Shown here: positions 1,441 through 29,164 of the stretch, one piece after another | How positions within the stretch are numbered: the stretch's first letter is position 1 | Layout of the letters: the number at the start of each line of letters is the position of its first letter | Source of the DNA: a virus | Lineage: Duplodnaviria > Heunggongvirae > Uroviricota > Caudoviricetes | DNA length: 64,000 nt | Direction: 5' to 3' (one strand) | Virus record (IMG/VR): IMGVR_UViG_3300009008_000004 | Coordinates: 82,004 to 146,003 of that record | Made by a program: the position numbers and the translations under genes | The notes under the pieces: model-generated | Told to the model about the DNA's origin: nothing | The model's input: only the letters and a program-made list of their open reading frames with translations | Databases searched by the model: none

Positions 1441-1442
1441 GG

Positions 1443-1679: not shown

Positions 1680-1703
1680 CGGATTCCTCCAAATTATTTC
1701 AAT

Positions 1704-2662: not shown

Positions 2663-2684
2663 CTCCCGAGACAACTGTACCGAA

Positions 2685-3461
2685 TTATTTCGCCGCATTG
2701 AGTATCTCCTCCACCTGAGGCATGGTCTCTGCTTTGGATTCCATGTACAGACGGGTTGCTTCTTTACACTCCGCGGCCTTAACCAACAGCGGGTGCTTGG
2801 GATTCGGGATAGAAGAGGCTGGGTCATTCCCTGTACCGCGGCAAACTTCTGTTCGAGCGCAAGCAATCTTAATGAACTCCGGGCTGGAGCCAGAAGCTGC
2901 AAGTGCTGAAGATACTTCGTCTACAGAGAGCTCGCCAGTTTGTACTGCCTCCGCCACGTAATTCTGCAAAGAGGCTACCTTACTCAGGGCCCGCGATTTC
3001 AGGTCCTCTACTGCATCCAACATATGCGCCAGCTTCTGCCGGGTAGCGATCGGGTCCTCTACCGCGGATGTCTGCTCCTCAGCTCCGCCCACCTCCCCGA
3101 ACAACGCGTGTGCCAGCTTTTCCGTAGAGATGAAATCCTCCCCTGGGATATAATTGGCCTTCGCAAGTTTGGTCTTCACCTCAGTACCTCCACATTTAGT
3201 AGCATCGGCCACATCGAACGTAATGTAGCCAGCTTCCTTCTTCATCAATAGGGAGAAAGCCTCGTTATTCGCCGCCTCAACTACCCGCCGTGTCTGCTCT
3301 CGATTGAGTGCATTATCCTTCACAAAACCCGCAATAGTCGAGTTCATATCCTCTTCAGACCCAACCATCTTACGAGCAGCGGTTTTGCCTAAATCCTCAA
3401 GGAAGTCCTTTGTCTTATGCGAGGGGCCGCAGGACGTAAGAAACCGCACGATTGAGTCCAT
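2685..3461 (-). CDS. Helical head-morphogenesis protein with 9 K-x-A motifs (scaffold/core candidate)
   Basis: 258 aa. AGGAGG SD and its own promoter. Motifs KTA, KEA x2, KLA x3, KVA, KIA, KAA. Confidence 0.65.
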   Translation of the reverse strand: MDSIVRFLTSCGPSHKTKDFLEDLGKTAARKMVGSEEDMNSTIAGFVKDNALNREQTRRVVEAANNEAFSLLMKKEAGYITFDVADATKCGGTEVKTKLAKANYIPGEDFISTEKLAHALFGEVGGAEEQTSAVEDPIATRQKLAHMLDAVEDLKSRALSKVASLQNYVAEAVQTGELSVDEVSSALAASGSSPEFIKIACARTEVCRGTGNDPASSIPNPKHPLLVKAAECKEATRLYMESKAETMPQVEEILNAAK

Positions 3462-3488
3462 GAATCGATCCTCCTATTCGCCGAGTAT

Positions 3489-3518
3489 ATCGTAAAGAGA
3501 GTAGCGTATATGTGTCAA
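3489..3518 (-). promoter_or_regulatory. sigma70-type promoter TTGACA-N18-TACGAT
   Basis: Perfect -35 at 3518-3513 and -10 at 3494-3489, in the intergenic gap before the AGGAGG SD of the 3461 gene. Confidence 0.7.
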
Positions 3519-3528
3519 GATACTACTC

Positions 3529-5184
3529 CTATTGGCCTTTCTGCTCTTCCATGTATGCCACACCGGCGTTCATCACGTCCGGTCGAGGGTGGGACAGCAT
3601 ACTCGCCAGGAAACAATAAAGTGCAGAGTGGAATGCATCATCGGTACCGTCAATTAGTTTGTCGTAGACAATTGTATGCCTGTCCTCACGATACTCACTG
3701 TAGATGTTCAAGAAATCCTCTGCAAAGGGCTTGAACTCCTCCCAACGGGGGAACCGGATGTGCCCCTTCTTGATTGCATTGAAAAACATGCTCATTACTT
3801 CTGTTCGGTTGGCAATAAATCGATTGAGCTGAGATTGCCATTTGACGAGCCCGCTAAGACCGGCGTACTGGTACTGCGCTACTTTCCGCGGACCGAAGGT
3901 TGTAACAAGATCATGGTTCCTATCAAAACCACCGCCGTAATCGACCCCGATGATGTCCATGCCAGGATGCTCAGAATACAGATGCTTTATATGGGCCATC
4001 TGCCTCTTGGGTTCCGACAACTCTCCCACGTACTTATGGAAATGGATGAACGTAAACTTTCCGTGAATGTATGTTCCTATGGAAGAAACTGTATAGGAAT
4101 TTTCCGCGGAACCCCAATCAACACCCATCCACTTAGGTTGCGCAGCGGCCTTGAAGTAGGAAGTACCATGTGGGTACTGGCTGCTGTACATCGAAACGGT
4201 AGGATCACACGCTGCTTTCAACTCTGCTTCCGTAATAGGAGTTGCCCCAACATCATGGGGAACCCCAAGTACCTCATTGAGGAATTGGGCCCGGGGGTAC
4301 CTTGTCCGTTTATCCAGCAGTTCCGGCCAGGATACCCGAGGAGAGATGATCTGCGGAATACGGAAACCCTCAAACGGTTCTTCAACCCCAGGCTCTGGAT
4401 TCATCGAAACCCATTGGGCAGAAGAATGCATCGGGTGTATCTGCGCATCGCAGCGAGCACACGATAAATATTCCTTTCCGATATTTTCTTCCCCAGGCAA
4501 ATTCCAATACCGGTAATCCCCACCCCCACAAGCATCGCAAGGTATCATCCACTCATTCTGCGTAGAGAACTTCTTGAATGTTCTGGAAAGGGTATTCGAT
4601 TCAGTCAGCGGAGTTCCGGCGTAATGGAATTGCTTGTGCTCAGAAGCAAACGTACACTCCTCGATAACCGGGAGGAGGGTGGCAAGGATGTTCTGGAGCT
4701 CATCCACAAAGAGGAAATCTGTCATGATACCGCGGATGGCATCTGCAGTTAGGAATGCATAACCAAGTCGAATCTCAGACCCAGAAACAAACTCCTTGTA
4801 CATCGCATTGTCTTTGGCACCCCGATTGGTCTGGAAATTACTCAAGAAATCGGACCAAAGCAGAGGTTGCTTCAGGCGATCACGACTAAAGGTTTGCGCC
4901 TGTCCCTGACGGGGAGCAACGTAAAGTATCTTGATATACGGACGTAACACGGAGGCCGCAATCATCTTATTGCCCTGGGATGTGCTTTTCTCCACCTGAC
5001 GGCCGCACATGAGGATAGTCTTTCTCGAGGGAGTGTCGTAGACACGCCGCAAATACCTACGGCCCTCAAATGAGAAGGGCTCGAGCTTTCCACTTTTGGG
5101 TAGACGGAAAGATGTTTCAACGAAATTCGAGAGGGTGAGCTTTGCCGGTTCCCTGGATTTAGACTGGAGCCCAATGGGGAGCAC
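3529..5184 (-). CDS. terL: Terminase large subunit
   Basis: 551 aa. ATPase motifs GRQVEKST, LFVDELQ and AGTP; a CxxC...CxxC linker; RNase H-like nuclease motifs GVDWG, GVDYGG and DDAFHS. Confidence 0.9.
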   Translation of the reverse strand: MLPIGLQSKSREPAKLTLSNFVETSFRLPKSGKLEPFSFEGRRYLRRVYDTPSRKTILMCGRQVEKSTSQGNKMIAASVLRPYIKILYVAPRQGQAQTFSRDRLKQPLLWSDFLSNFQTNRGAKDNAMYKEFVSGSEIRLGYAFLTADAIRGIMTDFLFVDELQNILATLLPVIEECTFASEHKQFHYAGTPLTESNTLSRTFKKFSTQNEWMIPCDACGGGDYRYWNLPGEENIGKEYLSCARCDAQIHPMHSSAQWVSMNPEPGVEEPFEGFRIPQIISPRVSWPELLDKRTRYPRAQFLNEVLGVPHDVGATPITEAELKAACDPTVSMYSSQYPHGTSYFKAAAQPKWMGVDWGSAENSYTVSSIGTYIHGKFTFIHFHKYVGELSEPKRQMAHIKHLYSEHPGMDIIGVDYGGGFDRNHDLVTTFGPRKVAQYQYAGLSGLVKWQSQLNRFIANRTEVMSMFFNAIKKGHIRFPRWEEFKPFAEDFLNIYSEYREDRHTIVYDKLIDGTDDAFHSALYCFLASMLSHPRPDVMNAGVAYMEEQKGQ

Positions 5185-5186
5185 GG

Positions 5187-5597
5187 TTATCTTCTCCTCT
5201 CCAGAGCAGCGGCGATCTCCTGCATCTTACGCTGAGCACGTCGTTTCCCCGAAATACCGGCCTCGATACCTTTCTTCCCAACACTTGCAGCAGAGAGCAC
5301 AGGACGGTAGGGATACCGCATCCACCAGGGTATCTTAGGGGAATCGACAAGCTGCGCCCCAATCTTCTGCAGCTGATTCATAGGAAGCGGGGGTGGTAAC
5401 ATTTTGGGTTTCCGTAGCTTAGACGGAAGGGGCTTCAACTTTGGTGGGGGAGGGACTCTACCCGAGACGGCGTACGGTCGCTTTGCGCGGGTTACCTGCG
5501 GGTCCTTAGTGATGAAGGGCTTGGGGGGCTTATGGGGCTTCCCAATCTCACCTCCAGTGGGGACATACTTTGGCTTCGGAATACTGTACTTCGACAT
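5187..5597 (-). CDS. Pro/Lys-rich basic hypothetical protein
   Basis: 136-aa ORF packed between terL and SNF2 with 2-3 nt gaps. Low complexity. Confidence 0.65.
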   Translation of the reverse strand: MSKYSIPKPKYVPTGGEIGKPHKPPKPFITKDPQVTRAKRPYAVSGRVPPPPKLKPLPSKLRKPKMLPPPLPMNQLQKIGAQLVDSPKIPWWMRYPYRPVLSAASVGKKGIEAGISGKRRAQRKMQEIAAALERRR

Positions 5598-5600
5598 TAG

Positions 5601-7256
5601 CTACCCCGTCGGTGGGTAAATATAGACCCATTCACCAGTTTTAGGGCTACGGTACTTCCGCAAGTATTTGTGCATACGGATACCCTTGGGCTGCTTCACC
5701 TTCAAAACGTTCCGCATGCTCTCATTCAACTGGTGCTTCTTCCGGGCAACGTTGTACACCCACTGGTCAACTGTAGCCCCGGGTTTACGGTTGAAGATGA
5801 AACCCTTGGGATACGCCGTTGTATACCGTTTGATAAGCACCTTTCGCTTCTCAGGAGGCCGATGGGATTGGCCACCCAATCGACGTACGCGGGCCTCGGC
5901 CTGGTGCACACGTTCCGGGTTCCAATGCCCATCCATTGAGAAGAACGCGGTAGCATTCTTCAGGTCGAGGCCTTCTGCCCCTGCACCAGAGATAAGGACA
6001 ACCTTCTTCTTGCCGGCCTTGAAGTCTGCAATGTCTACATCCCTACTATCGCGAGTCACCTTCTTACCCCCGATAGTTCTACCAGTACCAGCAAATACCC
6101 CAAAAGGAACTCCCCGCTGTTGCAGACCAGCCGCGGCAACGTCCAACCCTCCCTTGATGAGATTACTGTAGACAACAGCCTTCCCATCCGGCGTCTCCTT
6201 CAGATGGTTTTGGAGGTCATCCAGCAGTTTTTTTGTCTTAGGGGTCAACTCAGCAGACTGTGCCTTTGTGTACTCCGGGTTGGCAGAGGAGATATCGTTC
6301 AATGCCCGGCGGGCGTGGATGATCTTCCCAAACACATGAGCAAGCTGCTGTGGAGAGAGGTTAGTCTCTCCCTTAGCAATCATCTTCTTGATTGGGCCCA
6401 GCTTATCCATGACGTAGTCGTAGTAGAGCTTTTGCTCCTTTGACATTGGAACCCGAACAGTTTCCACCTGCTTTGCAGGCATGCTCTTTCCGACATCTTT
6501 ACTTGTTCGTACGTCAACGACGGGCGTGACATAATGTGCAATCTCGCCCGGATTCACGAGAGCTTTGATATCTTTCTTACCACCCCAAAAACCCTTCTCC
6601 TTTCCAATAGTACGCATGTACCTTTGTTTGAAGAGAGACTTGGACATAAATTGCCCCCCGGTCGCAATGTTGACCAGAGTAGCAATCTCCGCAGGACTGT
6701 TATTCACCGGACTCGCAGTTAGCCCAATGAAGTTCTTACTGTACTGCCGGGCCTGAAGTGCTGCCTTATGGGTACGTGATCGCTCAGAGCGCAGCTTATG
6801 GAACTCATCGAAAACCAGGGTATCAGCGCCACTCCGGCGGATGAGGCCAATGGGGTCCCGACGGAACATATCGTAAGAGATGACCGTGTAATCTGCTGCC
6901 GGAGTTATCTCATCGATATAATGGATGTTGTCGTTGGGGTCCTTGTTGGCCGCAGCCTTTGACCCAACAACCTGGTGGGAAGACTGCGTAAACTTCTGGA
7001 TACCTTCCTTCACGAAGTTGGTCTTCAAACCAGCCGGCACAACTACAAGGGCTTTGTTCGCACGTCCGGCAGCCTTAGCTTTTTCAAAAGCAAAGATTGC
7101 AGTAGCCGTCTTCCCAGTACCAGTGGCATGCGCAAGAATCACTTGCCCCTGGTTGAAGAACTTATTGACAGCCGCCTGCTGATGCGGGTAGGGCTTGAAC
7201 CCTTCCTTTACCCCGGCTACCTTAGTTTGCCCAAGGAATTGTGCAAGCTTGTCCAT
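5601..7256 (-). CDS. SNF2-family (SF2) helicase/translocase
   Basis: 551 aa. Motifs PHQ, HATGTGKT, FDEFH, LTASP, ISGAGAEGLDL, WNP...QAEARVRRLG. N-terminal KLA/KVA leader. Confidence 0.92.
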   Translation of the reverse strand: MDKLAQFLGQTKVAGVKEGFKPYPHQQAAVNKFFNQGQVILAHATGTGKTATAIFAFEKAKAAGRANKALVVVPAGLKTNFVKEGIQKFTQSSHQVVGSKAAANKDPNDNIHYIDEITPAADYTVISYDMFRRDPIGLIRRSGADTLVFDEFHKLRSERSRTHKAALQARQYSKNFIGLTASPVNNSPAEIATLVNIATGGQFMSKSLFKQRYMRTIGKEKGFWGGKKDIKALVNPGEIAHYVTPVVDVRTSKDVGKSMPAKQVETVRVPMSKEQKLYYDYVMDKLGPIKKMIAKGETNLSPQQLAHVFGKIIHARRALNDISSANPEYTKAQSAELTPKTKKLLDDLQNHLKETPDGKAVVYSNLIKGGLDVAAAGLQQRGVPFGVFAGTGRTIGGKKVTRDSRDVDIADFKAGKKKVVLISGAGAEGLDLKNATAFFSMDGHWNPERVHQAEARVRRLGGQSHRPPEKRKVLIKRYTTAYPKGFIFNRKPGATVDQWVYNVARKKHQLNESMRNVLKVKQPKGIRMHKYLRKYRSPKTGEWVYIYPPTG

Positions 7257-11262: not shown

Positions 11263-11283
11263 TATATCGCCTCCTAAGTTAGC

Positions 11284-12519
11284 TTACCCACTCAACTTCA
11301 CAATACTCGAAAGCGCTATTCCTGATTCGAGTGATGCAATCCAATCCGCCGTTGGCACCCCGGTTATTGGGGGCGCGCCAGGTGGTACCGGTGCGGGGGG
11401 CATATGTACATGTGCGGCCAACATACCCATCAACACCTTCCCAAGGACCGCGCTCTCAAGCGCCACATTACTGCCCAAGTTTATAGTCCCCGAGTCTATC
11501 GTGCAACTCCCTGTCCCAGAGGACAGAGATATACCGGACAGGGCCTCTACAACAAGTTCTTGCACTGTAGCCTTCAAAGAACCGTCAGATTCTCCTGTCA
11601 GTTTCCCGGCAGAACCAAACTCCACCACGAACCCGTTCTCGGCGTAGACGTGACCCGTATCCATCTCCCAATGCATATCCCCGGTAACCTTTGTAAAGAC
11701 GTTACCAAGAGTATCTACCTGGAAAGTGTAGGTACACCCAGTGTTCTCAGGATCAACGCAAATGGAGATAAGTGTTGTCTCCTGCGTATTCCCCGGATAG
11801 GACCCGGAACCAAACTTGTATGCCTTGTCTCGAGTAGAGCCGAATAACTCATCTTGGCTCGGCGAGAACTGGTCATCCCCGGCACGGCCGGCACGTACTT
11901 TGATAGTTACATGCTGGTCCTCAACATCTTTTTTCATACCCCAGTAGAGCTGGGCAGCAGTTTTATCATCACCGGTTTGGATAGTTCCATGCTTCCAAAA
12001 AAGAGTGCCAAGCAAGGATTTGGCCTCATAGTTCTGGAAGAAGTGCCGGATGAAGTTATCGATAGGGATGTAAAGAGTCTGCGCAAGGGGAGAACTTCCG
12101 ATCTGCAGGGTACCACCTTTACGCAGTAGGACTGTAGCGCCCCGCGAGTTGTAGAGGGCGATGTCCCCAGGAGCCAGGCCCATCCTCCCACCAAGGAAAT
12201 CATCGTCCGGTTCTGCTGCGTCATCCTCTGAGAAGGCTCCATGGAGGGGGGCACTCAACCACCCCATTACAACAGGGTCGGATCCATCGGACATGAGGTA
12301 GACGAAACACTTAGACCCTACCTCCGGGACAAAGTCGATATGGGTCCCAGTTACCACATTGGTGTACAGGGTGCCGTACGGAACGTTGCTGTAGATATCA
12401 GACTCCCCGGAAAGGTCGACCTCGACATCTACTGTGCGGGTACCTGGGTATACCTGCACGATGGTACCGAGTACTACTGCTGCTGATGTTGTTCCACTCT
12501 GCTGAGGACCGCTTACCAT
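11284..12519 (-). CDS. Baseplate central spike (gpV/gp5/gp138-like)
   Basis: 411 aa. N-terminal OB-fold pattern (GTIVQVYPGTRTVDV...VPEVGSKCFV...VVMGW), beta-repeat C-half, terminal HxH (AHVH) apex motif. Confidence 0.8.
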   Translation of the reverse strand: MVSGPQQSGTTSAAVVLGTIVQVYPGTRTVDVEVDLSGESDIYSNVPYGTLYTNVVTGTHIDFVPEVGSKCFVYLMSDGSDPVVMGWLSAPLHGAFSEDDAAEPDDDFLGGRMGLAPGDIALYNSRGATVLLRKGGTLQIGSSPLAQTLYIPIDNFIRHFFQNYEAKSLLGTLFWKHGTIQTGDDKTAAQLYWGMKKDVEDQHVTIKVRAGRAGDDQFSPSQDELFGSTRDKAYKFGSGSYPGNTQETTLISICVDPENTGCTYTFQVDTLGNVFTKVTGDMHWEMDTGHVYAENGFVVEFGSAGKLTGESDGSLKATVQELVVEALSGISLSSGTGSCTIDSGTINLGSNVALESAVLGKVLMGMLAAHVHMPPAPVPPGAPPITGVPTADWIASLESGIALSSIVKLSG

Positions 12520-12540
12520 AGAAAAATCCCATTTAGATAT

Positions 12541-15500
12541 TTAGTATGTTCCCTTCTCTCCCTTCCCAAATTCTGCTCCGTAAACTATCCCGGGAATCGG
12601 ATGTTCCCCATGGAGATGTGATATCCCCTGCTGGGATCCGGCCTGCTTCAGCACATCCCGCAAATGCTTATAATTGAGCTGCGTCAGCCAATCATCATGC
12701 AAATGGAAGGGCAAGATGTTTGTGCCTCGCAAAACAGGGGTATACTTGACAGTGTCCTTTTTCCCATTTTCAGAGTTCCAGGATTGGATCGCTCGGACAG
12801 GCACAATATCTCCGGGAAGATAATCTGGGTGATCCCCCGACTCCCGAACTTCCGCGACATCTGTTAGCGCCCGGACAATTACCTCGAGGTGCCTGTGGCG
12901 AATCTTCTCCGGGTCGTACAGCTTTCCGAGCTCATCTACCAGGTAGTTTTGTACTGTTGATACATTCGTAAGCCCAAGAAGTTCGCGGGGGTTGATGGGC
13001 CCACTGCTGAGTGCCCCACCCTTGGGAATGCGGGTTCCCTTAGTAACCTTAAGCTTACGGCTCGCAGGTACATGGTGCTGCTCAGAGCCTACCTTAACAT
13101 CCCAACCCCCAACGGGGCTCTTGGAGATGGAATTGACTACCCCGGCATTCTTGCTGAGGATAGCGGAACCCTTCAGCTTTTGGGGCATTTGTAGCACCTG
13201 CTTCAACCGCTCTATTCCATCCACAAGACCAGCGCCACCAGTGGCTGCGCCGCCGGTGTGAAAAACGCGCATCGCAAGCTGCGTGGCCGGCTCTCCGATG
13301 GATTGTGATGCGATGACCCCTACGTTCTCTCCTATGGGTGCGGGGTTGCCGGAAGGGTCGAGCCCGTAGCATTTCTGGCATAGGCCCTTCTTAGCCTGGC
13401 ACTTCAAGGGGCTGCGAACGAGAATCTTAGAGACCTTTGCCTGCCGTAACTTAGCTACTGTGTCGGGGGTAATCGTCGAGCCTGCCCGGAGAGTCTCGCC
13501 CCGCACCTTGACGTTGTTCGCCAAAGTACGATCCAACACAGAAAGATCTGTTACAGGGACATGCATGCCTTTAGAGGTCTTGCAGTCATTCTCAGTAAGC
13601 GTAATACCCATGGTGGTCTTGACTACCTGCTTGGTAATTGCCCCCGGGTCCTGAACCTCCTGCGTCTTGGAAATGATACCCCGGCGAATACCTCCAGAAG
13701 ACAGCCAGTAATCATGAAGGGAGAGCCCGGAGCCGTAGCTCCCAGTAATTGCGGCTGGGATCGGCTTCCCTGCTGCATCGCTTACCATCATACGCGCCAA
13801 GACGATCTGTTTGATCTGCTCCCAGTTTGGCTTCACCCCTGCCCGAGACATTATCCAAAGAGGATTATCGTCTTTCTCAAGAGAGGCAAGGGCTTCCTTC
13901 TGCATCTTCGCAGAGGCCTTTGTGTACAGGTCTACGATCTTCGCATCCCGTTCAGCCCGCGGCAATTTCGCCTGCTTCTTTATGGCGGCAACCTTAGGCT
14001 CTACTTCCTTCAAAGTCTTATCGCGAATCTTATCGAGCACCTTAAAGGCATCAAGATTGAAGGAGAACCCAATTTTGTGGGCATGGCCGAAGCCGAGGTC
14101 CTTCAGCGTCTGCGCAAACTGCGGGTACTCTTGCGGAGTCTTCTGTGCCACATCTTTCAAGATAGCCCGCAGAGACTGCTTGTGGAACGCCCACTCTTTC
14201 CCAGTACCCAGGTGCTTGTGTAATTTCGCGGGTATCTTCTTTTTAAGTAGCTCACGACCCGCAGTAGTTGCTGTACCCCCTACCTTCACCCCCACGTCCC
14301 AACGAACTTCCCGGTTCTCTGCTGCTTTCAACAGAGCATCAGCGGAGGCGTACTTTTTGGAAGTGGTACCTTTCATACGGCTAAGGAGATATAGCCCAAC
14401 CAGGCCTTCCTTATCTGGGACAAACATTGGCTGCCCAGTAGCTGCGCTCAGGAGATTCCGGCTCGGCAACATATCATAGGCTTCCTTTACAGCTGCCTGG
14501 GATACGGGAACAAACAAAGACACCTGGTCCCCGTCAAAATCAGCATTGTACCCACTACATACAAGCGGGTGGATGTGTATCTCTTTATCGCCTTTAATAC
14601 GAACATTGAATGCCATAATCCCATACTTATGGAGGACGGGATCACGTTTCATCAATACCGGCCGTTCCTTCAGCACGGCATCAAGGGCAATCCTCGCTTC
14701 AGGTCTTCTATTGAGAATAATGTCTTTGGCCTGAAGAGGCCGCATACCGCCCCGCACCAAATGTTGCATTACAAAAGGACGGAAAAGTTCCATAGCGGTA
14801 GCTTCCGGCATCCCTACTTCATCGAGCTGCAGTTCCTGGTCCGGGACAATAACCCCGCGGGCAGACATATCCTGCTTCCGCTTTACCAACTGCTCCATGA
14901 AGTAGCCAGTCTTCGGAGATTTCCCTGCGATAATATCGAGGATCCCCTTTGGGATATCCAACCGCTCACGGTCCGGACCAACCAGTCCTGCTAGAGCCGT
15001 AATACCGCCATAAACCTCCGCGCGGAGTTTAGCCAACTCTTCATCAGGAGTTTCGGGAGGCATCTCCGCCAGGCGCGAGTTACTCAAGCTCAACTCTTTG
15101 TATAGCTGGTTCAGATCTCCCCGATTGAGGTTGCCATCATCCAGCACAGTAATCGGACGTAGGTTGGGCGGGAGCACAAGAACATTGCCCTGCATGTACA
15201 CATCAGCGGAATTATCCGCACGCTTCAGAGCACGCAGATACTTCACTTTCCGGTTGAGCTGGTTACGGTTCGAGTCTTTAGCTCCCTCAAGACTCTTCTC
15301 AGCCTTCCGCAATTCAGTGGGGATATCCAACTCCTTAAGGGCTCGGCCAAGCGTAGCTCGAGGCCCAATACGAGTAGCCTCCTCTGCGGGGACCACATTA
15401 CCATCCTTATCCATCCCCAATTCACCGGAGACAAGCTTACTGAAGGTGTCGTGTTTCAGTCCCAGAAGCGCCATAATCGGCCGCTCAAACAATGGGTTGG

Positions 15501-18500
15501 GGAAAGCTTCCGCAAGCGCAAAATGGGAGAAGTGCTTTCCTCCTACACCACCGGTAATCTTCTCATCGAAGAGACCACCAGCCTCAGGGCGTAGGTCTTT
15601 TGCACGTAGGATTTTTCCGGGGTCTTTCAACTCTCCATTGGAGAGCTGTTTTACCTGCTTATCCGTAAAGGGAAGAACGGTGAGGACATCACCTTCACGC
15701 TCAACATCCAATCCAAGAACCTTGAGGTAGGCCAAGAACTTTTCGAACGCAAAAGGTACCTGCGGGCGAGGAAGGGGGTGGCCAAGTTGCACAGCTGTCC
15801 AAATATCATCCTGAGATTGGTCAGATTTGATAGTCTGCATCTCACGGATGTTATTCACTGCCCCATGCGCCAGCATCGCAAAAAGCCCCAACTCACCTAC
15901 ACGTTGTGCCCCATGCTTACCACCACCCTTGGGCTCCATATTAATGGTATATTCGTACCCTGGCCCCCAAGAACGAGCGGCTGCTTTCTTCTCTGCCTGA
16001 TGGTTCAACTTGATGATATACTGGTGGCCAACAAGCTGCTTCCCGAGCGCTTTCCCATTATCATCGAAAAGCTCAGCTTCCTCTGAAAGACCGCGAGCAT
16101 CCAACATATCATCAACAATGGAACGATAATCCCTCTCATACTCATAGGGCTCAATCCAAACTTTCTTCGTGCCCTTAGCGGAAGTCTTCACTGTACGCCA
16201 GTGACCCTTAACCTTAATAATGCGCGTAGACCGGTCCGCCTGGAAGTTCCGTACTGCAAGAGGAGATCCCTCGTGGATAGCGACATGCGAAAGGGAAGTT
16301 TCAAGCACCTGCCCGGCATTCATACGGCCGGGGACACCTAAGGGGTTCATAACAATATCGACGGCGTTGCCTTCTTTATCCCGGGGCATCTCATCATCAG
16401 GCAACACAAGGGCAACGACACCTTTGTTCCCATGGCGACCCGCCAACTTGTCCCCAGGCTGTGCCGGGAAATCTGCTCGTACGTGGACCTCGATGTACTT
16501 CCCACGACGAACAACGTCCACCACCTCACCGCGTACACCCTTGTCCCACACAACCGAGCGGTCTGTATACTCCCGAACAAGACTTCGGTGAATGCCCTTC
16601 ATCAGAGCTTTCTCAGGTGTCATCGGGGCCTTCTTAGCTGCAGCTACAACAGTATCTCCAGGCTCAACCACTTCCCCGACCTTGATAACACCGTCGTCAT
16701 CGAGCTTTCCGCGATTCTCTGTACTCATCGCTTCTGGGAAAAGGGTAGTGAACTTCTTCTTATTGAGTACGTAATCGCGGTCCATAAAAATGGAAGGCTT
16801 GTGCATGTGAACAGAAGTCAACTTCTTAGAAGCCGACTCAGAAATCAACAAGCCATCTTCAAAAACAAGGCCCTTGTACGGCAGGTAACCCACCCGCAAG
16901 TTAGTACCAAGAGCCAGTGTACCGTCCTTAGTGAAGTTAGTATCGGCGATTATCTCACCAGTCTTGACCGTGTCCCCAACAGCTACGGCCGGTTCAGAGC
17001 TCAGGTAGGCTTGCAGCTCATTCAGGGGGAAATTGTCATAGAGCTGTACTGTGTGCCGTTTTCCATCTTTCCCTGTAACCGTAATCCCGTCTTTCGTGAT
17101 ACGAGTTACCTTGCCGCTTACAGGAGAGGAGTGTGCGGCAAACGCCGCCCATGCTCTCTCATGGGTCCTCCCCGGCTCATCAAGAGATCGGCTGTGCGTT
17201 TGGATAAGCGGAGGCTCACGGTTCTTCAGGGGAAGCGCCTGCTCCATATGCCGGACTGCCATCTCCACTCGAGTACCATCATCGTTCTGTAGGAAAGGAA
17301 CCAGATTGGTCATAGGGGAGAACATCGTAGTTGCCGAGGGCAATACGTAGTCTACCTTTGCCGGGTCCACTACAGCCTTCAAATCTTCAGGGGTCTGCGC
17401 AGAGACCTTCTTAGTTACTGGAACCCAACCACCTTTCTCTTTGCGGTATTGGTCCGGAAAAGATACCACTGCCTGCGCAAGCTGAAGCGGGGTAACCAGC
17501 TCGAGTTTCTTTGTTTTCGTGTTGTACGCGGGGATAGTTACCGCCCCATCCTTTCTACGGGCATCAGTAGTTAGCTTGAGAGAAATGCCTGCGCGATCCC
17601 CTTCAGGGGTATGTACTGGATCAAGGACACCGAGCTGTGTGGGATCTGCTGCCTTGGCATCAGCGGTAACACCGAAGGCAGAGCCGATGGCCCCAACATC
17701 TGCGCCAAGCAACGTAGTTCCCAGGTACCGTGACAACATAGATACCGGGTTCGTTTGGGGAGTTTGGTTGGCAACAGAGGATTCCCGGAAGAATGAAAGG
17801 AGTGGGCCGGAGAAAATATCTGATGCGAATATTTCTCTAACCTTGTCCTTCCGATCCAGGTTATTCTTCATTTTCCGGGCTACTCTATTTCGCGCGCGGT
17901 CCAACCGATCCGGCAACAAGTCCTCTATCCCTAAGAGGTCCTTGAAGGGCAGCGCATCCCGATTATCTGGTTCTCGCTTACCCTGGTGTATCTCCAGAAG
18001 ATTGGTAGAAGCCTTTAGAAGAGGTTCTGCGTTTACTGTGGCATACGGCTTCCCCAAAGTAAGTGCTGTAGAGTCGGGACGAAGTTCTGTATCCGCAAAG
18101 CGGCTTCTTACCGCGTCTATCACCCCGGCCTCTGTTGCGGGCACCGGGTCCTTTAAAGAAGTAAGGAGTTTGCGTAAAGCAGCCTGCTTATCGCGGGGAG
18201 AAGTCTTTGCGGCGTTGAAGAGGTCTTTCCCCCAGGCCTTCTCCATAGCGCCGTCGGAAACCCCAAGGGCAGAGAGTACCGGGTAAAGGGGTACCTTAGC
18301 CGATGCATACTTAAAGGAAAAGTTCTTCTTGTTGGGATCCAGGATCAGGCGAAAACCACGTTGGTTAAATCCCTTCTTCAAGTTGAACATAATCTCGGGT
18401 TCTCCCGTAGCAGCAATACGAGAGTAAACGCCCGACTTCAGTCTCCAGACGTGATCGGTCTGGTACTCCTTGCCATCAATGATAAAGCTGTAACGGCGGG

Positions 18501-18789
18501 TAAGAGTGGGGAGGCCCACTATCTTTGCCTTTGGTACCCGATCGATAGTTTTCCCAGTAGCCTTATCTACAAGAGAAAAATCCCCGTGCACGCCAACAGA
18601 CCAGGTACGCCCGTTACGCCTTGCCGTTTCCTGGCTTTTGATGTCGTCAACCGACTTGGGGTCGGAGACCAATACACTGTTTAGCTTCAAGACGTGTTTC
18701 TTGCCTACAAGCGGGAAGAAGCTCTTTATCTTGTCGGCTACTTTCTGCTGAAGGTTATCAGTAAGAGTCTGCGGATTAAGGACAAGCAT
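12541..18789 (-). CDS. rpoBC: Single-chain fused beta-beta' DNA-directed RNA polymerase
   Basis: beta motifs: TPEG, FEDGLL, GDKLAGRHGNKGV, NPLGVPGRMN, QRVGELG. beta' motifs: KRDPVLH, YNADFDGDQ (14547-14527), CxxxxGLCxxCYG, SIGEPATQLAMRVFH. Start revised to 18789 because the ATG at 18825 overlaps the -10 box. Confidence 0.95.
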   Translation of the reverse strand: MLVLNPQTLTDNLQQKVADKIKSFFPLVGKKHVLKLNSVLVSDPKSVDDIKSQETARRNGRTWSVGVHGDFSLVDKATGKTIDRVPKAKIVGLPTLTRRYSFIIDGKEYQTDHVWRLKSGVYSRIAATGEPEIMFNLKKGFNQRGFRLILDPNKKNFSFKYASAKVPLYPVLSALGVSDGAMEKAWGKDLFNAAKTSPRDKQAALRKLLTSLKDPVPATEAGVIDAVRSRFADTELRPDSTALTLGKPYATVNAEPLLKASTNLLEIHQGKREPDNRDALPFKDLLGIEDLLPDRLDRARNRVARKMKNNLDRKDKVREIFASDIFSGPLLSFFRESSVANQTPQTNPVSMLSRYLGTTLLGADVGAIGSAFGVTADAKAADPTQLGVLDPVHTPEGDRAGISLKLTTDARRKDGAVTIPAYNTKTKKLELVTPLQLAQAVVSFPDQYRKEKGGWVPVTKKVSAQTPEDLKAVVDPAKVDYVLPSATTMFSPMTNLVPFLQNDDGTRVEMAVRHMEQALPLKNREPPLIQTHSRSLDEPGRTHERAWAAFAAHSSPVSGKVTRITKDGITVTGKDGKRHTVQLYDNFPLNELQAYLSSEPAVAVGDTVKTGEIIADTNFTKDGTLALGTNLRVGYLPYKGLVFEDGLLISESASKKLTSVHMHKPSIFMDRDYVLNKKKFTTLFPEAMSTENRGKLDDDGVIKVGEVVEPGDTVVAAAKKAPMTPEKALMKGIHRSLVREYTDRSVVWDKGVRGEVVDVVRRGKYIEVHVRADFPAQPGDKLAGRHGNKGVVALVLPDDEMPRDKEGNAVDIVMNPLGVPGRMNAGQVLETSLSHVAIHEGSPLAVRNFQADRSTRIIKVKGHWRTVKTSAKGTKKVWIEPYEYERDYRSIVDDMLDARGLSEEAELFDDNGKALGKQLVGHQYIIKLNHQAEKKAAARSWGPGYEYTINMEPKGGGKHGAQRVGELGLFAMLAHGAVNNIREMQTIKSDQSQDDIWTAVQLGHPLPRPQVPFAFEKFLAYLKVLGLDVEREGDVLTVLPFTDKQVKQLSNGELKDPGKILRAKDLRPEAGGLFDEKITGGVGGKHFSHFALAEAFPNPLFERPIMALLGLKHDTFSKLVSGELGMDKDGNVVPAEEATRIGPRATLGRALKELDIPTELRKAEKSLEGAKDSNRNQLNRKVKYLRALKRADNSADVYMQGNVLVLPPNLRPITVLDDGNLNRGDLNQLYKELSLSNSRLAEMPPETPDEELAKLRAEVYGGITALAGLVGPDRERLDIPKGILDIIAGKSPKTGYFMEQLVKRKQDMSARGVIVPDQELQLDEVGMPEATAMELFRPFVMQHLVRGGMRPLQAKDIILNRRPEARIALDAVLKERPVLMKRDPVLHKYGIMAFNVRIKGDKEIHIHPLVCSGYNADFDGDQVSLFVPVSQAAVKEAYDMLPSRNLLSAATGQPMFVPDKEGLVGLYLLSRMKGTTSKKYASADALLKAAENREVRWDVGVKVGGTATTAGRELLKKKIPAKLHKHLGTGKEWAFHKQSLRAILKDVAQKTPQEYPQFAQTLKDLGFGHAHKIGFSFNLDAFKVLDKIRDKTLKEVEPKVAAIKKQAKLPRAERDAKIVDLYTKASAKMQKEALASLEKDDNPLWIMSRAGVKPNWEQIKQIVLARMMVSDAAGKPIPAAITGSYGSGLSLHDYWLSSGGIRRGIISKTQEVQDPGAITKQVVKTTMGITLTENDCKTSKGMHVPVTDLSVLDRTLANNVKVRGETLRAGSTITPDTVAKLRQAKVSKILVRSPLKCQAKKGLCQKCYGLDPSGNPAPIGENVGVIASQSIGEPATQLAMRVFHTGGAATGGAGLVDGIERLKQVLQMPQKLKGSAILSKNAGVVNSISKSPVGGWDVKVGSEQHHVPASRKLKVTKGTRIPKGGALSSGPINPRELLGLTNVSTVQNYLVDELGKLYDPEKIRHRHLEVIVRALTDVAEVRESGDHPDYLPGDIVPVRAIQSWNSENGKKDTVKYTPVLRGTNILPFHLHDDWLTQLNYKHLRDVLKQAGSQQGISHLHGEHPIPGIVYGAEFGKGEKGTY

Positions 18790-18823
18790 TTTTTTCGCAC
18801 CCCATGACGGCACTTTCCGCTCC

Positions 18824-18853
18824 ATGATATTGGATGGGGGGTAGTAGCGTCAA
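18824..18853 (-). promoter_or_regulatory. sigma70-type promoter TTGACG-N18-TATCAT for the RNAP gene
   Basis: -35 at 18853-18848, -10 at 18829-18824. Same N18 spacing as the 3518 and 23315 promoters. Confidence 0.6.
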
Positions 18854-18867: not shown

Positions 18868-18877
18868 CTGGTATAAG
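18868..18877 (+). promoter_or_regulatory. CTGnTATAAG promoter-like element, copy 1
   Basis: CTGGTATAAG upstream of the plus-strand small ORFs. Same pattern as 23349-23358. Confidence 0.5.
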
Positions 18878-18932: not shown

Positions 18933-19046
18933 ATGGTAGACAGCCACGACGGAGGGACAACCTCCCTCGACCACTTCGCCGACGGATTGGCCGTTGACGA
19001 AGACGAAGACCTTGGAGATTGGGTTGACGAAGAGGACGACGAGTAA
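18933..19046 (+). CDS. 37-aa ultra-acidic peptide (below the ORF-track cutoff)
   Basis: MVDSHDGGTTSLDHFADGLAVDEDEDLGDWVDEEDDE: 16 D/E and no K/R. AAGGAG SD 6 nt upstream. Confidence 0.65.
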   Translation: MVDSHDGGTTSLDHFADGLAVDEDEDLGDWVDEEDDE

Positions 19047-19052
19047 CACCCA

Positions 19053-19151
19053 ATGGCGCTGGGGCTATTCCTCGCCGGCCATTTCCTGATTGGTGTCGGT
19101 GTAGAACTAATCTATGAGGCGAAAGATCTCCTCGTAGAAAAAGCCCTATGA
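19053..19151 (+). CDS. 32-aa hydrophobic peptide
   Basis: MALGLFLAGHFLIGVGVELIYEAKDLLVEKAL. Starts 6 nt after the acidic peptide's stop. Weak SD. Confidence 0.4.
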   Translation: MALGLFLAGHFLIGVGVELIYEAKDLLVEKAL

Positions 19152-19249: not shown

Positions 19250-21181
19250 TTACTTCTTACTTGTTAGGGGAGGGGGACCACCGCTGAATTGGTCAACCTG
19301 CATTCTATTTACTTCATCGAGAATTGCAGGGTAAAGGCTTGGAACCTGCTTCTGCAGCTTAATAAGCGCTTTCGGGCGTTGGAAGGAATCCAGAGCAAAT
19401 AGGCTACGGGCAGCCTGCCTTGCCAGGAGTTCAGTCTCCGGGCCGGTAGGGGGCTGAACCTGCGGAGCTTCCGGAGCTGCTGGAGGCATAGCCATATCTT
19501 CTGGACGCGCACCTAATGCCTGCATTTGCTCAGGAGGCAGGCTACCGGGCTGCTGGGGAGCGCCCTGCGGTGCCTGTCCCGGAGGGGCCTGGCCGGGGGG
19601 CACCTGCCCTGGAGGAGGCGGAGGCATCGATTCCTGCATAGCCTTCTGCTGCTCTCCCTGATATTTAGCTGAGATAATTCCAGCCTCTCCGTTGATCTCC
19701 GCGCCGTCGGTAGCGGTCTTCTCGTTGATCTTCCGCATGATATCCAGATCGTTGAAAATCTTCTGCTGTTCCGTATTGAAGTCGAGGTCCCTGGATTCCA
19801 GCAGAGTCTCGGGGCTGATGAGCTTACGGTCGTAAAGCTGGAGGTCATATGCGGCTTTCTGCAATTCGTCTGCCATGCGGAAGGGCTTCTGCCGCACCTC
19901 ACACAGAGGAATGCCGAAAGCATTAGCAATGTCCCTAACGATGAACTTGATCATATGGTGGACATCCTCCCTCATACGGAGGAAAGAGTTCTCCATTGTC
20001 CGCATCGAAACGCTTGACCCACTCCAGCGCAACCCGCCAAAGACAAACTCAGAGGGGACGCCGAGACCCGCGAGAATCTGCTCCTGCAGAACCTTAATCT
20101 CGTTATGGAGCAGAAGCATTTTACCTTGCCCACCAACAACCTGGTGCCCCACCGGATACGGCATTACGGGCATGTAGTTAGGGTCCTTCCTCCAGGTAGT
20201 AATCTCAGACTTTACGTGGTCCTGCCAGTCGAGCAGGTTATACGTGGTATAGGGATCCGCTTTCGGGTCGGAGGTCTGCGGGAAGAAGATACGCATCGGT
20301 ACAATGTGCTCGAGGGCAATCGCTTCCTGCGCTTTCAGCAGAATCCTGTAGTAGAACGCGGTCTTCATTACCGGGGTAATCAGGGGGAGACCCCAGCCGG
20401 CATCATGCCTTGAAATGGATGTTCTACGCAGATGGAATATTGTTCCCGGGCGGAAAACCAGCTTCTTGCCCTTGGCAACAGCGTTGATGAACGCTTGCGG
20501 AATAGTCTGCAGGGTATCCTTCCGACCAACCAGAATAGCGTTCGAGATGGCAGGGGGGATCGTGTACACGTAGATTGTACGCCCAGTTGCGGGGTTATGC
20601 TCAATCTCCATGTAGTTCGGGTTGATCCTGAGGACTCGCAGGTCCTTCAAAGATTTGATGTACTGGTCCTGAACCTTGGCGTACCCACTGTAAGTACACT
20701 TGGGGCAGGTATACATGAACTGGTAAGAACTCCAGGTGTAGTCTGTAGACTCTACCGGAACAGAGTGCCCACATTCCCGGCACACCAACATCTTCCGTAG
20801 TGGGTGGTGGACGTATACAAAAGAGTTCCCGTAGGTATGGTAGTCCATCAGGACCTCTACGAGGAATGCACGAATCTGGAATACTTCCTCAAAGATGTAC
20901 TTGTAGGTGTCGTTTACCCACTCGTTCTCACTCAGATACGCAAGATCCGTAATGGGGTACGCCGAGAGCTTGGCTATCGCTGCATGGATAAGTGGGTCCA
21001 TGACCGCGAAATACTCGCACCATTTGAATTGCGATTTTACGGTACGCGGGAGGTACAGGTTGGAGACATCCGCAAACACATTGGCGTACGGAGCGTAATC
21101 AGTGCTTCCTGCACGAGATCCGTAACCACTGAATCTCCCGCTTGAGCCCGACGCTACATCGTATGGGTTGCTCCCAAACAT
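19250..21181 (-). CDS. Portal protein with Zn-ribbon insertion and Pro/Gln-rich tail
   Basis: 643 aa. Portal-like pattern (IHAAIAKLSAYPIT, DYHTYGNSFV, IFHL...GWGLP, ILAGLGVPSEFV). CRECG...CPKC insert. Located in the head module. Confidence 0.8.
   Translation of the reverse strand: MFGSNPYDVASGSSGRFSGYGSRAGSTDYAPYANVFADVSNLYLPRTVKSQFKWCEYFAVMDPLIHAAIAKLSAYPITDLAYLSENEWVNDTYKYIFEEVFQIRAFLVEVLMDYHTYGNSFVYVHHPLRKMLVCRECGHSVPVESTDYTWSSYQFMYTCPKCTYSGYAKVQDQYIKSLKDLRVLRINPNYMEIEHNPATGRTIYVYTIPPAISNAILVGRKDTLQTIPQAFINAVAKGKKLVFRPGTIFHLRRTSISRHDAGWGLPLITPVMKTAFYYRILLKAQEAIALEHIVPMRIFFPQTSDPKADPYTTYNLLDWQDHVKSEITTWRKDPNYMPVMPYPVGHQVVGGQGKMLLLHNEIKVLQEQILAGLGVPSEFVFGGLRWSGSSVSMRTMENSFLRMREDVHHMIKFIVRDIANAFGIPLCEVRQKPFRMADELQKAAYDLQLYDRKLISPETLLESRDLDFNTEQQKIFNDLDIMRKINEKTATDGAEINGEAGIISAKYQGEQQKAMQESMPPPPPGQVPPGQAPPGQAPQGAPQQPGSLPPEQMQALGARPEDMAMPPAAPEAPQVQPPTGPETELLARQAARSLFALDSFQRPKALIKLQKQVPSLYPAILDEVNRMQVDQFSGGPPPLTSKK
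19545..19630 (-). repeat. PPGQ-type coding repeats in the portal C-terminus
   Basis: PPPPPGQVPPGQAPPGQAPQGAPQQPG. Confidence 0.8.
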
Positions 21182-28128: not shown

Positions 28129-29164
28129 TGAGATAGTTGCGATGCTTGAGCATAAGTTACGCATTATAGACCACACCGGTGAGAACCTGGCGTGTATCTG
28201 CCCATTCCATAAGGGTGGGCGAGAAAGCAGGCCATCGTTCTACGTCTATGTTGGTCCTGTCTATGGAACCAAGGTTCCGGGGATGGCCTTCTGCCACACC
28301 TGTAATCGCGGTTGGTCTTTGAAGGGTCTGCTGAAAGACCTTGGCACCCCTTTGAAGAGAATCGATGCCCTCACCAAGGATATCCCTACTGTGGGGGAGC
28401 GCATCACACCGATCCGGTATGCAAAGGGGCTCACCTTCGATAATCCGGTTCTACCTGAAGGTCTGCTGGGGGTATATGATAGCTGCCCGGTGGATCTCCT
28501 GGATGCCGGGTTTGAGATGAGCATCTTGCGCAAATACGAGATCGGGTTCGATCCGTTCCTCGACCGCATCACTTTCCCGTTGCGGGACCACAAAGGCAAT
28601 CTCATTGGAATATCCGGCCGCTCAGTAGCGAAGTTCCCGAAGTACAGATACCACTTGTACCGGGGGGATGACCTGCGAAAGGCCGGAGACGACGACAAAG
28701 AGTTGGCGCGGGCCTGTTCCGGGTATAAGCTATTCAAAGGACGGTTCCTTTGGAACCTCCACTCGATGTACACAACAGCTATCATGGGATCTATCCCGTA
28801 CGTTATTGTTGTAGAAGGGTTCAAGCAGGCCATGTGGCTCGCCCAGGCTGGGTGGGACTACACAGTTGCATTGATGGGTTCGCATATGTCTCGGGAACAG
28901 GCGACTCTTCTGATGCGGCTGGGGGCACCTGTCTACATCTTTCTCGACAATGATGCTGCGGGGCAGCAGTCAGCACCGAAGCTGGTGAAGTGGTTGCGCC
29001 GGCAAAGTCCTGACATCTACCAAGTAACGTACCCTGTGGGTACTGAGGATCTCTCCCCGGATGACTTCCGGCCGGAGGATCTATCGTCAATCCTAACAAT
29101 AGTGGGGCAACAGAATGGACAAGTTGCAAGCATTCACCAAGAAGTTCAACAAACAGAAGGCTAA
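28115..29164 (+). CDS. dnaG: DnaG-type DNA primase
   Basis: CPFH...CHTC zinc finger, RITFPLRD..G...GISGR, TOPRIM VVEG and FLDNDAAG. Confidence 0.88.
   Translation: MLVRSEIVAMLEHKLRIIDHTGENLACICPFHKGGRESRPSFYVYVGPVYGTKVPGMAFCHTCNRGWSLKGLLKDLGTPLKRIDALTKDIPTVGERITPIRYAKGLTFDNPVLPEGLLGVYDSCPVDLLDAGFEMSILRKYEIGFDPFLDRITFPLRDHKGNLIGISGRSVAKFPKYRYHLYRGDDLRKAGDDDKELARACSGYKLFKGRFLWNLHSMYTTAIMGSIPYVIVVEGFKQAMWLAQAGWDYTVALMGSHMSREQATLLMRLGAPVYIFLDNDAAGQQSAPKLVKWLRRQSPDIYQVTYPVGTEDLSPDDFRPEDLSSILTIVGQQNGQVASIHQEVQQTEG

What the first reader, a model, noticed from the sequence alone, without database searches (positions are those of the whole stretch)
12541..18789. Compact single-chain beta-beta' RNA polymerase of cellular type in a tailed phage
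Seen: one ~2080-aa ORF carries all beta motifs followed directly by all beta' motifs. The junction is at ~15640-15760 (...FEKFLAYLKVLGLDVE-REGD-VLTVLPFTDKQVKQLSNGEL...), which aligns with the end of bacterial beta and the start of beta'. It is roughly 650 aa shorter than E. coli beta plus beta'. No alpha, omega or sigma gene is in the window. Established: deep-branching multisubunit-RNAP-encoding tailed phages have been reported from metagenomes (recalled, not verified here) but are biochemically almost unstudied, and they differ from the split phiKZ-type enzymes.
Basis: partly seen in the sequence, partly recalled or inferred. Interest (0 to 1): 0.75.

Follow-up and report, generated by a model that had tools for sequence, protein, structure and literature searches.

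The report
Single-chain beta-beta' phage RNA polymerase
A complete 183-kb tailed phage encodes, next to its portal gene, one protein that joins a full bacterial-type RNA polymerase beta subunit head-to-tail to beta'; this enzyme defines a very large, almost unstudied phage family that also carries its own sigma factor and its own promoter motif.

Summary
Window 12541-18825 (minus strand) is one open frame of 2094 aa; the likely start is Met13 at 18789, giving 2082 aa. A complete bacterial-type beta is followed with no linker by beta'.

It is not a misassembly. The junction lies inside one ORF in 76 of 76 informative viral loci. It is also not a recent host gene. The best bacterial matches are 27-33% identical, the phage sequences form one long-stemmed clan, and an AU test rejects grouping with Proteobacteria (p = 0.003).

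The enzyme lacks the beta' zinc ribbon, SI1, SI2, SI3 and the C-terminal tail. The genome has no alpha or omega gene.

Two sigma-like genes lie outside the window. One is the orthologue of Salmonella phage Arash gp10 and occurs in 17 of 20 long relatives.

The motif GGTATAAG occurs 27 times on the plus strand and twice on the minus strand, mostly upstream of non-structural genes. Arash shows the same strand bias.

Published Arash proteomics found the RNAP and gp10 in virions. The most likely role is therefore an injected, sigma-dependent, self-sufficient transcriptase; this part is inferred.

The published mReC phages have separate beta and beta' genes. The scan noted this enzyme before on another record (e1-1854836).

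The parts
12541..18825 (-). Whole fused beta-beta' RNA polymerase ORF (2094 aa from the first ATG; probable true start Met13 at 18789, 2082 aa)
15700..18789 (-). Beta module (aa 13-1042). It keeps the GDKLAGRHGNKG and NPLGVPGRMN motifs. SI1, SI2 and b1127-1180 are absent. The rifampicin pocket is substituted at 516, 526, 529 and 531.
15670..15711 (-). Fusion junction (aa 1039-1052). The last beta strand (LDVERE) and the first beta' strand (VLTVLP) are modelled as a beta-hairpin with a two-residue turn.
12544..15699 (-). Beta' module (aa 1043-2094). The zinc ribbon (b'64-95) is deleted after aa 1092. The clamp helices are present, SI3 is absent, the second zinc site (C1748, C1809, C1816, C1819) is kept, and the C-terminal tail is trimmed.
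14527..14547 (-). Catalytic NADFDGD motif (aa 1427-1433); ADFDGD is invariant in the family alignment
18870..18877 (+). GGTATAAG promoter-like motif, divergent from the RNAP gene and facing small plus-strand ORFs
28722..28729 (+). Second GGTATAAG site in the window, inside or just before plus-strand genes
19250..21181 (-). Portal protein gene directly upstream, orthologue of Arash gp204
   Evidence: E 3.5e-82
5601..7256 (-). SNF2-type helicase, orthologue of Arash gp217 (detected in Arash virions); same strand block as the RNAP gene
3529..5184 (-). Large terminase subunit, same strand block

Best explanation
The gene encodes the complete catalytic core of a phage-owned, bacterial-type RNA polymerase in which beta and beta' form one polypeptide. 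Joining the two subunits end to end probably replaces the alpha-dimer scaffold and omega, neither of which the phage encodes. Promoter recognition is most likely supplied by phage sigma factors. The first is sigma-B (299 aa, regions 2-3), which is conserved across the family and is the orthologue of the virion-associated Arash gp10. The second is sigma-A (196 aa, ECF-like, regions 2 and 4). The likely cycle has four steps. (1) The enzyme and sigma-B are made late from the head-gene block and packed into the capsid. (2) They enter the cell with the DNA. (3) They transcribe the non-structural plus-strand genes from promoters that have only a -10-like element, GGTATAAG; sigma-A lies in one of these operons. 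(4) Later genes are then read by the same core, perhaps with sigma-A. Substitutions at four rifampicin-pocket positions predict rifampicin-insensitive transcription. What is shown here: the identity and architecture of the enzyme, the family-wide fusion, the absence of alpha and omega genes, the presence of both sigma genes, and the strand-biased motif. What is inferred: packaging in this phage, which sigma pairs with the enzyme, and which polymerase reads the motif.
For: Homology to beta and beta' is strong and the catalytic motifs are intact. An AlphaFold2 model of aa 600-1500 has pLDDT 82.6, and its two halves match solved beta and beta' chains. The fusion junction lies in one ORF in 76 of 76 informative viral loci, and 58 of the 79 loci hold the complete single ORF. 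At least 150 clusters at 50% identity belong to the family. Alpha (PF01000) was found in none of 21 genomes; omega (PF01192) was not found in this genome. No second match to this enzyme was found in the genome. Sigma-B matches RpoS and SigA regions 2-3 (E 9e-11), matches Arash gp10 (E 1.4e-20), and is present in 17 of 20 long relatives. In Arash virions the RNAP gp206 had the most spectra of any protein, and gp216, gp10 and the helicase gp217 were also detected (PMC10585845). The gene order portal, RNAP, helicase, gp222-like structural gene, capsid gene is shared with Arash and lies on one strand; in this phage the terminase gene sits inside that block, between helicase and gp222-like gene. 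GGTATAAG occurs 27 times on the plus strand and 2 on the minus strand, against a shuffle mean of 4.7 in total. Nineteen of the 27 plus-strand sites are followed by a Shine-Dalgarno sequence and a start codon, against 6.0 expected. The same 8-mer shows a marked strand bias in Arash (1 vs 30), where the excess strand is opposite the RNAP gene as here, and in four other relatives, whose RNAP orientation I did not check. The G at the last position replaces the T that, from my own knowledge of sigma-70 promoters, is almost invariant in their -10 elements.
Against: The virion evidence comes from a relative whose enzyme is only 30% identical. That virion preparation also contained plainly non-structural enzymes, and its authors raise carry-over as a possibility. 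Nothing here shows that sigma-B binds the phage core rather than host RNAP. The flap-tip helix is only weakly conserved and the zinc ribbon is gone. GGTATAAG resembles an extended -10 element and, from memory, the T4 late promoter, so host RNAP carrying a phage sigma could read it. The motif is not enriched in about half of the relatives tested. No late-promoter motif was found. Use of host alpha or omega cannot be excluded by sequence.
Confidence: 0.62

Rival explanations
1. The enzyme is real but is not packaged. Host RNA polymerase, alone or with a phage sigma, reads the GGTATAAG promoters early. The fused enzyme is made after infection and takes over middle or late transcription.
For: GGTATAAG looks like an extended -10 element. 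Phage sigma factors that redirect host RNAP are common (review text). The Arash virion preparation contained many non-structural enzymes.
Against: The gene sits in the head-gene block, on the strand opposite to the motif-driven genes, as expected for a late and packaged product. RNAP gave the highest spectral count in Arash virions. All 27 plus-strand sites have G where sigma-70 promoters have a near-invariant T. The motif is conserved between phages whose RNAPs are only 30% identical.
Confidence: 0.22
2. The fused chain is a hybrid-enzyme component. It needs host alpha dimer and omega, and perhaps host sigma, to assemble and work, so it replaces only the host's beta and beta'.
For: Overall similarity to bacterial beta and beta' is high, and the clamp helices and flap are recognisable. 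No phage alpha or omega gene was found.
Against: The beta' C-terminal tail, which I recall as the omega-binding region, is trimmed, and the zinc ribbon is deleted. The family infects very different hosts yet keeps the same architecture. From memory, phiKZ-type and AR9 enzymes work without alpha. Arash virion proteomics lists no host alpha in the text I read.
Confidence: 0.1
3. The ORF is a recently captured host rpoBC, a chimeric contig, or an assembly artefact that joins two genes.
For: Fused rpoBC exists in bacteria: Wolbachia L051 and a Paceibacterota MAG L075.
Against: The genome is a closed record with direct terminal repeats and 100% estimated completeness. A scan of one genome from each of 185,579 species with patterns from this protein found no relative, and the best bacterial matches are 27-33% identical. 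The phage clan has 100% support on a stem of about 1.15 substitutions per site. The AU test rejects grouping with Proteobacteria (p 0.0034). The junction is conserved in 76 of 76 loci.
Confidence: 0.01

Closest known systems
Salmonella phage Arash gp206 + gp216 (with sigma gp10), and Vibrio phages D69, D148 and D181
   Same: Same enzyme family (30% identity over 95% of the length). Same beta/beta' junction fused in one ORF. Same portal-RNAP-helicase-capsid gene order. Same sigma gp10 orthologue. Similar genome size of about 180 kb. For Arash, also the same GGTATAAG motif with the same strand bias and 53% GC.
   Different: In those isolates beta' is split after about aa 1483 into two genes separated by inserted genes. 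Here, and in most uncultured relatives, the whole enzyme is one chain. The Arash paper annotates gp206 simply as the beta subunit and, in the passages I searched, does not mention the fusion.
mReC: multisubunit-RNAP-encoding Caudovirales (Weinheimer & Aylward 2020, PMC7481178)
   Same: Tailed phages with RNAP subunits that can be aligned to bacterial ones and that branch apart from cellular clades.
   Different: In every mReC row I read, beta and beta' are separate ORFs of about 890-1490 aa. mReC capsids are T4 gp23-type (PF07068), which this genome lacks. No mReC sequence was available for my tree, so the relationship between the two groups is unresolved.
Bacterial fused RpoBC (Wolbachia here; Helicobacter from memory; a Paceibacterota MAG here)
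   Same: The beta C-terminus is joined to the beta' N-terminus in one polypeptide, which shows the geometry allows it.
   Different: The bacterial fusions are 2284-2853 aa. They group with bacteria and not with the phage clan, and they work with alpha and omega.
phiKZ / AR9-type jumbo-phage multisubunit RNAPs
   Same: Phage-owned two-barrel RNAPs without alpha or omega. One set is packaged in the virion. They are rifampicin-insensitive (from memory).
   Different: Those enzymes are split into four or five polypeptides, come as two paralogous sets, are far more divergent, and have no sigma-70-family factor (review text). Here there is one set, one chain, close similarity to bacterial subunits, and sigma-70-family partners.
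Single-chain two-barrel virion RNAPs (crAss-like phi14:2 gp66, YonO, P23-45 tape-measure fusion)
   Same: One polypeptide carries both barrels, and some are delivered by the virion.
   Different: Those share little beyond the catalytic motifs with beta and beta'. This protein aligns to bacterial beta and beta' over almost its full length.

Membership tests
Bacterial-type RNAP beta-beta' catalytic core | Beta barrel with the GDKxAGRHGNKG and NPLGVPxRMN motifs | tested here: met
   Both motifs are present and conserved in the phage clan; Pfam Rpb2_6 E 4e-51
Bacterial-type RNAP beta-beta' catalytic core | Beta' barrel with NADFDGD, a bridge helix and a trigger loop | tested here: met
   ADFDGD is invariant in 18 sequences; the bridge helix and trigger loop align
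Bacterial-type RNAP beta-beta' catalytic core | N-terminal beta' zinc ribbon (four Cys, b'70-88) | tested here: not met
   A 32-residue deletion removes b'64-95; there is no Cys in this region in the family consensus
Bacterial-type RNAP beta-beta' catalytic core | Second beta' zinc site (b'814, 888, 895, 898) | tested here: met
   C1748, C1809, C1816 and C1819 are invariant
Bacterial RNAP holoenzyme | Alpha dimer and omega subunits | tested here: not met
   No PF01000 or PF01192 match in the genome; PF01000 found in 0 of 20 relatives. Use of host subunits is not testable here.
Bacterial RNAP holoenzyme | Sigma-70-family initiation factor | tested here: inconclusive
   Two sigma-like genes are present, but binding to this core is untested
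Arash-like phage RNAP family | Beta/beta' junction in one ORF, gene next to the portal gene, gp10-type sigma | tested here: met
Arash-like phage RNAP family | Virion association of the enzyme | not testable with these tools
   Known only from Arash proteomics
mReC (PMC7481178) | Separate beta and beta' genes of at least 800 aa each | tested here: not met
   A single 2082-2094 aa ORF; mReC rows list distinct ORFs
mReC (PMC7481178) | T4 gp23-type major capsid protein (PF07068) | tested here: not met
   No match in the complete genome; the capsid gene is the Arash gp226 type
mReC (PMC7481178) | RNAP in the mReC clade of the RNAP tree | not tested
   No mReC sequences could be fetched
phiKZ/AR9-type split RNAP | Beta and beta' each split; virion and non-virion paralogous sets; no sigma | tested here: not met
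   One copy, one chain; sigma genes are present

The most novel reading that the evidence does not exclude
This is a self-contained, virion-delivered, sigma-dependent bacterial-type RNA polymerase that works as a single chain without alpha or omega. It reads its own promoter, which has only a -10-like element (GGTATAAG, with G where sigma-70 needs T). It belongs to a phage lineage whose internal divergence exceeds that of the sampled bacterial phyla. That would make it a separate, old branch of the bacterial-type transcription machinery kept only in viruses.
Probability: 0.4. Interest if true: 0.8.

Novelty: new variant of a known kind. Interest (0 to 1): 0.66.

Why it matters
If the model holds, this is the smallest natural bacterial-type RNA polymerase core that can still be aligned to cellular enzymes, at about 2080 aa in one chain. 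It would show how the alpha scaffold, omega and the beta' zinc ribbon can be dispensed with. The system is directly testable: one gene, one conserved sigma, one 8-bp promoter motif, and cultured relatives (Arash on Salmonella, D69 on Vibrio). It could answer how sigma-dependent initiation works on a minimal core and how an enzyme of about 230 kDa is packaged and injected. The family is abundant in metagenomes, with at least 150 clusters at 50% identity, so a large group of phages of roughly 150-220 kb may be independent of host transcription and insensitive to rifampicin. The gene is also a long, well-conserved marker for the phylogeny of this group.

Tried and rejected
I therefore could not check whether the short database hits (about 790-1470 aa) are truncated genes or true stand-alone beta' genes. 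I used 79 IMG/VR and phage loci instead.
- treekit's clade test did not finish in three runs. I replaced it with a reduced IQ-TREE AU test.
- MAFFT in auto mode timed out. I used FFT-NS-i instead.
- A k-mer search for a late promoter upstream of minus-strand genes gave nothing convincing.
- Sigma-A found no orthologue in three relatives by protein search. Pfam region 4 hits in relatives are mostly below the cut-off.
- The PF00940 search for a T7-type RNAP was uninformative because the controls did not ring.
- No beta gene was found in Rhizobium phage RHph_TM30, so it was left out of the tree.
- No archaeal, eukaryotic or mReC sequences could be obtained. The tree is therefore unrooted, and "deep-branching" is not shown.
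- PHROG families 25354 and 24349 gave the top hits but carry no annotation.
- Literature searches for a described fused phage rpoBC of this family found none. The library is not complete.
Full report
**Observation**

The window holds one open frame at 12541-18825 on the minus strand, 2094 aa from the first ATG. An alignment of 18 family members shows that homologue N-termini line up with Met13 at 18789. No clear ribosome-binding site settles the choice.

Pfam finds Rpb2 domains 3, 6 and 7 at aa 387-1010, followed by Rpb1 domains 1, 2, 4 and 5 at aa 1180-1885. Against solved structures:
- Residues 25-1041 align to an entire cyanobacterial beta (E 6e-88).
- Residues 1050-1093 align to beta' residues 13-55.
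- Residues 1156-2064 align to the rest of beta' (E about 1e-117).

**Anatomy**

I aligned the protein with 32 bacterial beta plus beta' pairs, 41 phage relatives and Salmonella RpoB/RpoC (1342 and 1407 aa, the lengths I recall for E. coli).

- Junction: the fusion removes only about 4 C-terminal beta residues and 15 N-terminal beta' residues, and adds no linker.
- Missing from beta: SI1 (b229-350), SI2 (b938-1048) and b1127-1180.
- Missing from beta': the zinc ribbon (b'64-95, all four cysteines), SI3 (b'942-1128) and most of the C-terminal tail.
- Kept: GDKLAGRHGNKG, NPLGVPGRMN, NADFDGD (aa 1427-1433), the bridge helix, the trigger loop, the clamp helices and the second zinc site (C1748, C1809, C1816, C1819, all invariant in the family).
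- Rifampicin pocket: positions 516, 526, 529 and 531 read P, R, G and T. This predicts insensitivity to rifampicin.

An AlphaFold2 model of aa 600-1500, built on 36 family sequences, has mean pLDDT 82.6 and pTM 0.72. It places the last beta strand and the first beta' strand as a hairpin with a two-residue turn. Its two halves match solved beta' and beta chains at E about 1e-29 to 1e-30.

**Source and surroundings**

The window is bases 82004-146003 of a 182,719-bp IMG/VR virus record with direct terminal repeats, rated 100% complete. The record holds a single match to this enzyme. The gene lies in a 14-gene minus-strand block.

tblastn with Salmonella phage Arash proteins shows a shared order on one strand:
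- portal (gp204, E 3.5e-82, directly upstream);
- RNAP;
- SNF2-type helicase (gp217);
- large terminase;
- structural protein (gp222);
- major capsid protein (gp226, just before the window).

**Not an artefact and not a host gene**

- The 5.8-billion-protein search returned at least 120 clusters of 2039-2117 aa at 41-77% identity and 99% coverage, many on contigs of 150-190 kb.
- The exhaustive search with the beta' half returned 150 representatives at 50% identity, all of this family. Most have beta' starting near residue 1000.
- Of 79 viral loci, 58 hold the complete single ORF. The beta/beta' junction lies within one ORF in all 76 loci that cover it.
- A scan of one genome per species for 185,579 species, using patterns from this protein, found no relative. 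The best ordinary rpoB-rpoC loci are 27-33% identical and come from many phyla.
- In a maximum-likelihood tree (74 rows, 1935 columns, LG+G4), the 42 phage sequences form one clan with 100% SH-aLRT support. The stem is about 1.15 substitutions per site, and internal path lengths exceed those among the sampled bacteria.
- The bacterial fusions (Wolbachia, a Paceibacterota MAG) sit with bacteria.
- An AU test rejects placing the phage clan with the Gamma- and Betaproteobacteria (delta lnL 71.6, p 0.0034).

The tree has no archaeal or mReC sequences. "Deep-branching" is therefore not demonstrated here; only "not nested in a sampled phylum" is.

**Fusion versus split**

Arash and Vibrio phage D69 carry beta plus the N-terminal part of beta' as one protein of about 1525 aa, with the C-terminal part of beta' as a separate gene. 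The same secondary break, at about aa 1483-1520, recurs in five metagenomic loci. One locus also breaks inside beta, yet the beta/beta' junction itself is never broken. Arash and D69 are a pair inside the clan and all other sampled members are unsplit. The fusion is therefore most simply ancestral for the family and the split secondary.

**Partners**

No alpha (PF01000) or omega (PF01192) match was found in this genome, and alpha was found in none of 20 long relatives. Two sigma-like genes lie outside the window.

- Sigma-A is at genome 6335-6925 on the plus strand. It is 196 aa and has Pfam regions 2 and 4.
- Sigma-B is at genome 146100-146999 on the minus strand, 97 nt beyond the window's end, inside the structural block. 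It is 299 aa, has Pfam region 3, and matches RpoS, SigA and RpoD regions 2-3 at E 9e-11.
- Sigma-B is the orthologue of Arash gp10 (31% identity, E 1.4e-20) and is found in 17 of 20 long relatives.

**Promoter motif**

A k-mer screen of upstream regions picked out GGTATAAG.

- It occurs 27 times on the plus strand and twice on the minus strand. The shuffle mean is 4.7 in total, with a maximum of 11.
- The wider consensus is cgGGTATAAGnnnaGTAAc, with no -35-like element.
- Nineteen of the 27 plus-strand sites are followed within about 20-105 nt by a Shine-Dalgarno sequence and a start codon. Random positions give 6.0 on average and 13 at most.
- The sites lie in the plus-strand, non-structural parts of the genome. 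One lies upstream of the operon that holds sigma-A. One (window 18870-18877) is divergent from the RNAP gene.
- The same 8-mer shows a marked strand bias in Arash (1 forward, 30 reverse; control 2 and 3), where the RNAP gene lies on the forward strand, so the excess is opposite to it as here. Four uncultured relatives are also biased (2/27, 4/13, 0/10, 4/11), but I did not check their RNAP orientation. It is not enriched in about half of the genomes tested.

An exact motif shared by phages whose polymerases are only 30% identical points to a conserved phage-encoded reader. So does the G at the position where, from my own knowledge, sigma-70 promoters have an almost invariant T. This does not prove it.

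**Mechanism**

The Arash paper reports that gp206 gave the highest spectral count of all virion proteins. It also reports gp216, the sigma gp10 and the helicase gp217 in the particles. The authors note that abundant intracellular enzymes could be carried over (PMC10585845).

Taken with the gene's place in the head-gene block, the most likely reading is as follows. The single-chain core and sigma-B are made late, packaged and injected. They then transcribe the GGTATAAG-driven genes independently of host RNA polymerase, and sigma-A, expressed from one of those operons, is available for a later class.

What is shown is the architecture, the family-wide fusion, the missing alpha and omega genes, the sigma genes and the motif. 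Packaging in this phage, the pairing of sigma and core, and the reader of the motif are all inferred.

**Comparison with known systems**

- mReC phages: in every row of their supplementary table that I read, beta and beta' are different ORFs of about 890-1490 aa. Their capsids are T4 gp23-type, which this genome lacks.
- phiKZ/AR9-type enzymes: split into several chains, duplicated as two sets, and without sigma.
- crAss-like, YonO and P23-45 enzymes: single chains, but barely alignable to beta and beta'.
- Bacterial RpoBC fusions: these show the geometry is permissible but are unrelated.

I found no paper describing the fusion in this family. Automated JGI product names do label some members as both beta and beta'. 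The same enzyme was noted earlier in this scan on another record, with the same conclusions (e1-1854836).

**Verdict**

I rate it a new variant of a known kind: phage-encoded RNA polymerases of cellular type.

Noticed in passing
Homologues P0005-P0267: Many family members carry one to four intein or homing-endonuclease-type inserts (Pfam PF14528, PF14890, PF05204, PF03161). The inserts sit at recurrent sites equivalent to aa ~1433 (NADFDGD), ~1485, ~1585, ~1857 (trigger loop) and ~2022. Protein lengths reach 4739 aa.
   Followed up: partly
L002 (Arash) 10571-15200; L136, L160, L161, L166, L163: The secondary split of beta' at about aa 1483-1520 recurs. In Arash the gap holds mainly small opposite-strand genes. 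The 16-kb Arash locus has six GGTATAAG sites, all on that strand, and three of them lie in the gap.
   Followed up: partly
Genome 21309 (outside the window); variants near 29.2, 174.0 and 177.6 kb: The palindrome TATCTCATTGAGATA lies about 30 nt upstream of some GGTATAAG sites. It may be an operator for a phage regulator.
   Followed up: partly
L172:2033-2929 minus (genome 146980-147876, just past the window's end): A GNAT acetyltransferase gene lies directly upstream of sigma-B in the structural block. From memory, a phage GNAT (Rac) is known to inactivate host RNAP alpha.
   Followed up: no
window 18933-19046 (+) and 19053-19151 (+): Two tiny plus-strand ORFs, one very acidic and one hydrophobic, lie downstream of the divergent GGTATAAG site between the portal and RNAP genes.
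   Followed up: no
L075 (Candidatus Paceibacterota MAG) 163-7014: A CPR bacterium has rpoB and rpoC in one 2284-aa open frame, a bacterial fusion beyond Wolbachia and Helicobacter.
   Followed up: no
L019, L050, L081: MAGs labelled 'uncultured Gammaproteobacteria' have unusually compact rpoB and rpoC. In the tree they branch away from Proteobacteria, next to CPR. They may be mislabelled or very fast-evolving.
   Followed up: no
L091 (Rhizobium phage RHph_TM30): This T4-like phage encodes an 1127-aa beta' homologue, but no beta was detected in its genome with this query.
   Followed up: partly
L174:2657-3694 (Arash gp196): Arash has a second annotated sigma (345 aa) that is not in the virion protein list I read. 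It has no tblastn match in this genome, whose second sigma (sigma-A) is of a different, ECF-like type.
   Followed up: partly
window 48759-54092 (-), 43377-48533 (-), 36693-40397 (-): Three very large structural-module proteins: 1777 aa with a Baseplate_J domain, 1718 aa with a weak PKD hit, and 1234 aa with a weak pectate-lyase-like hit.
   Followed up: no
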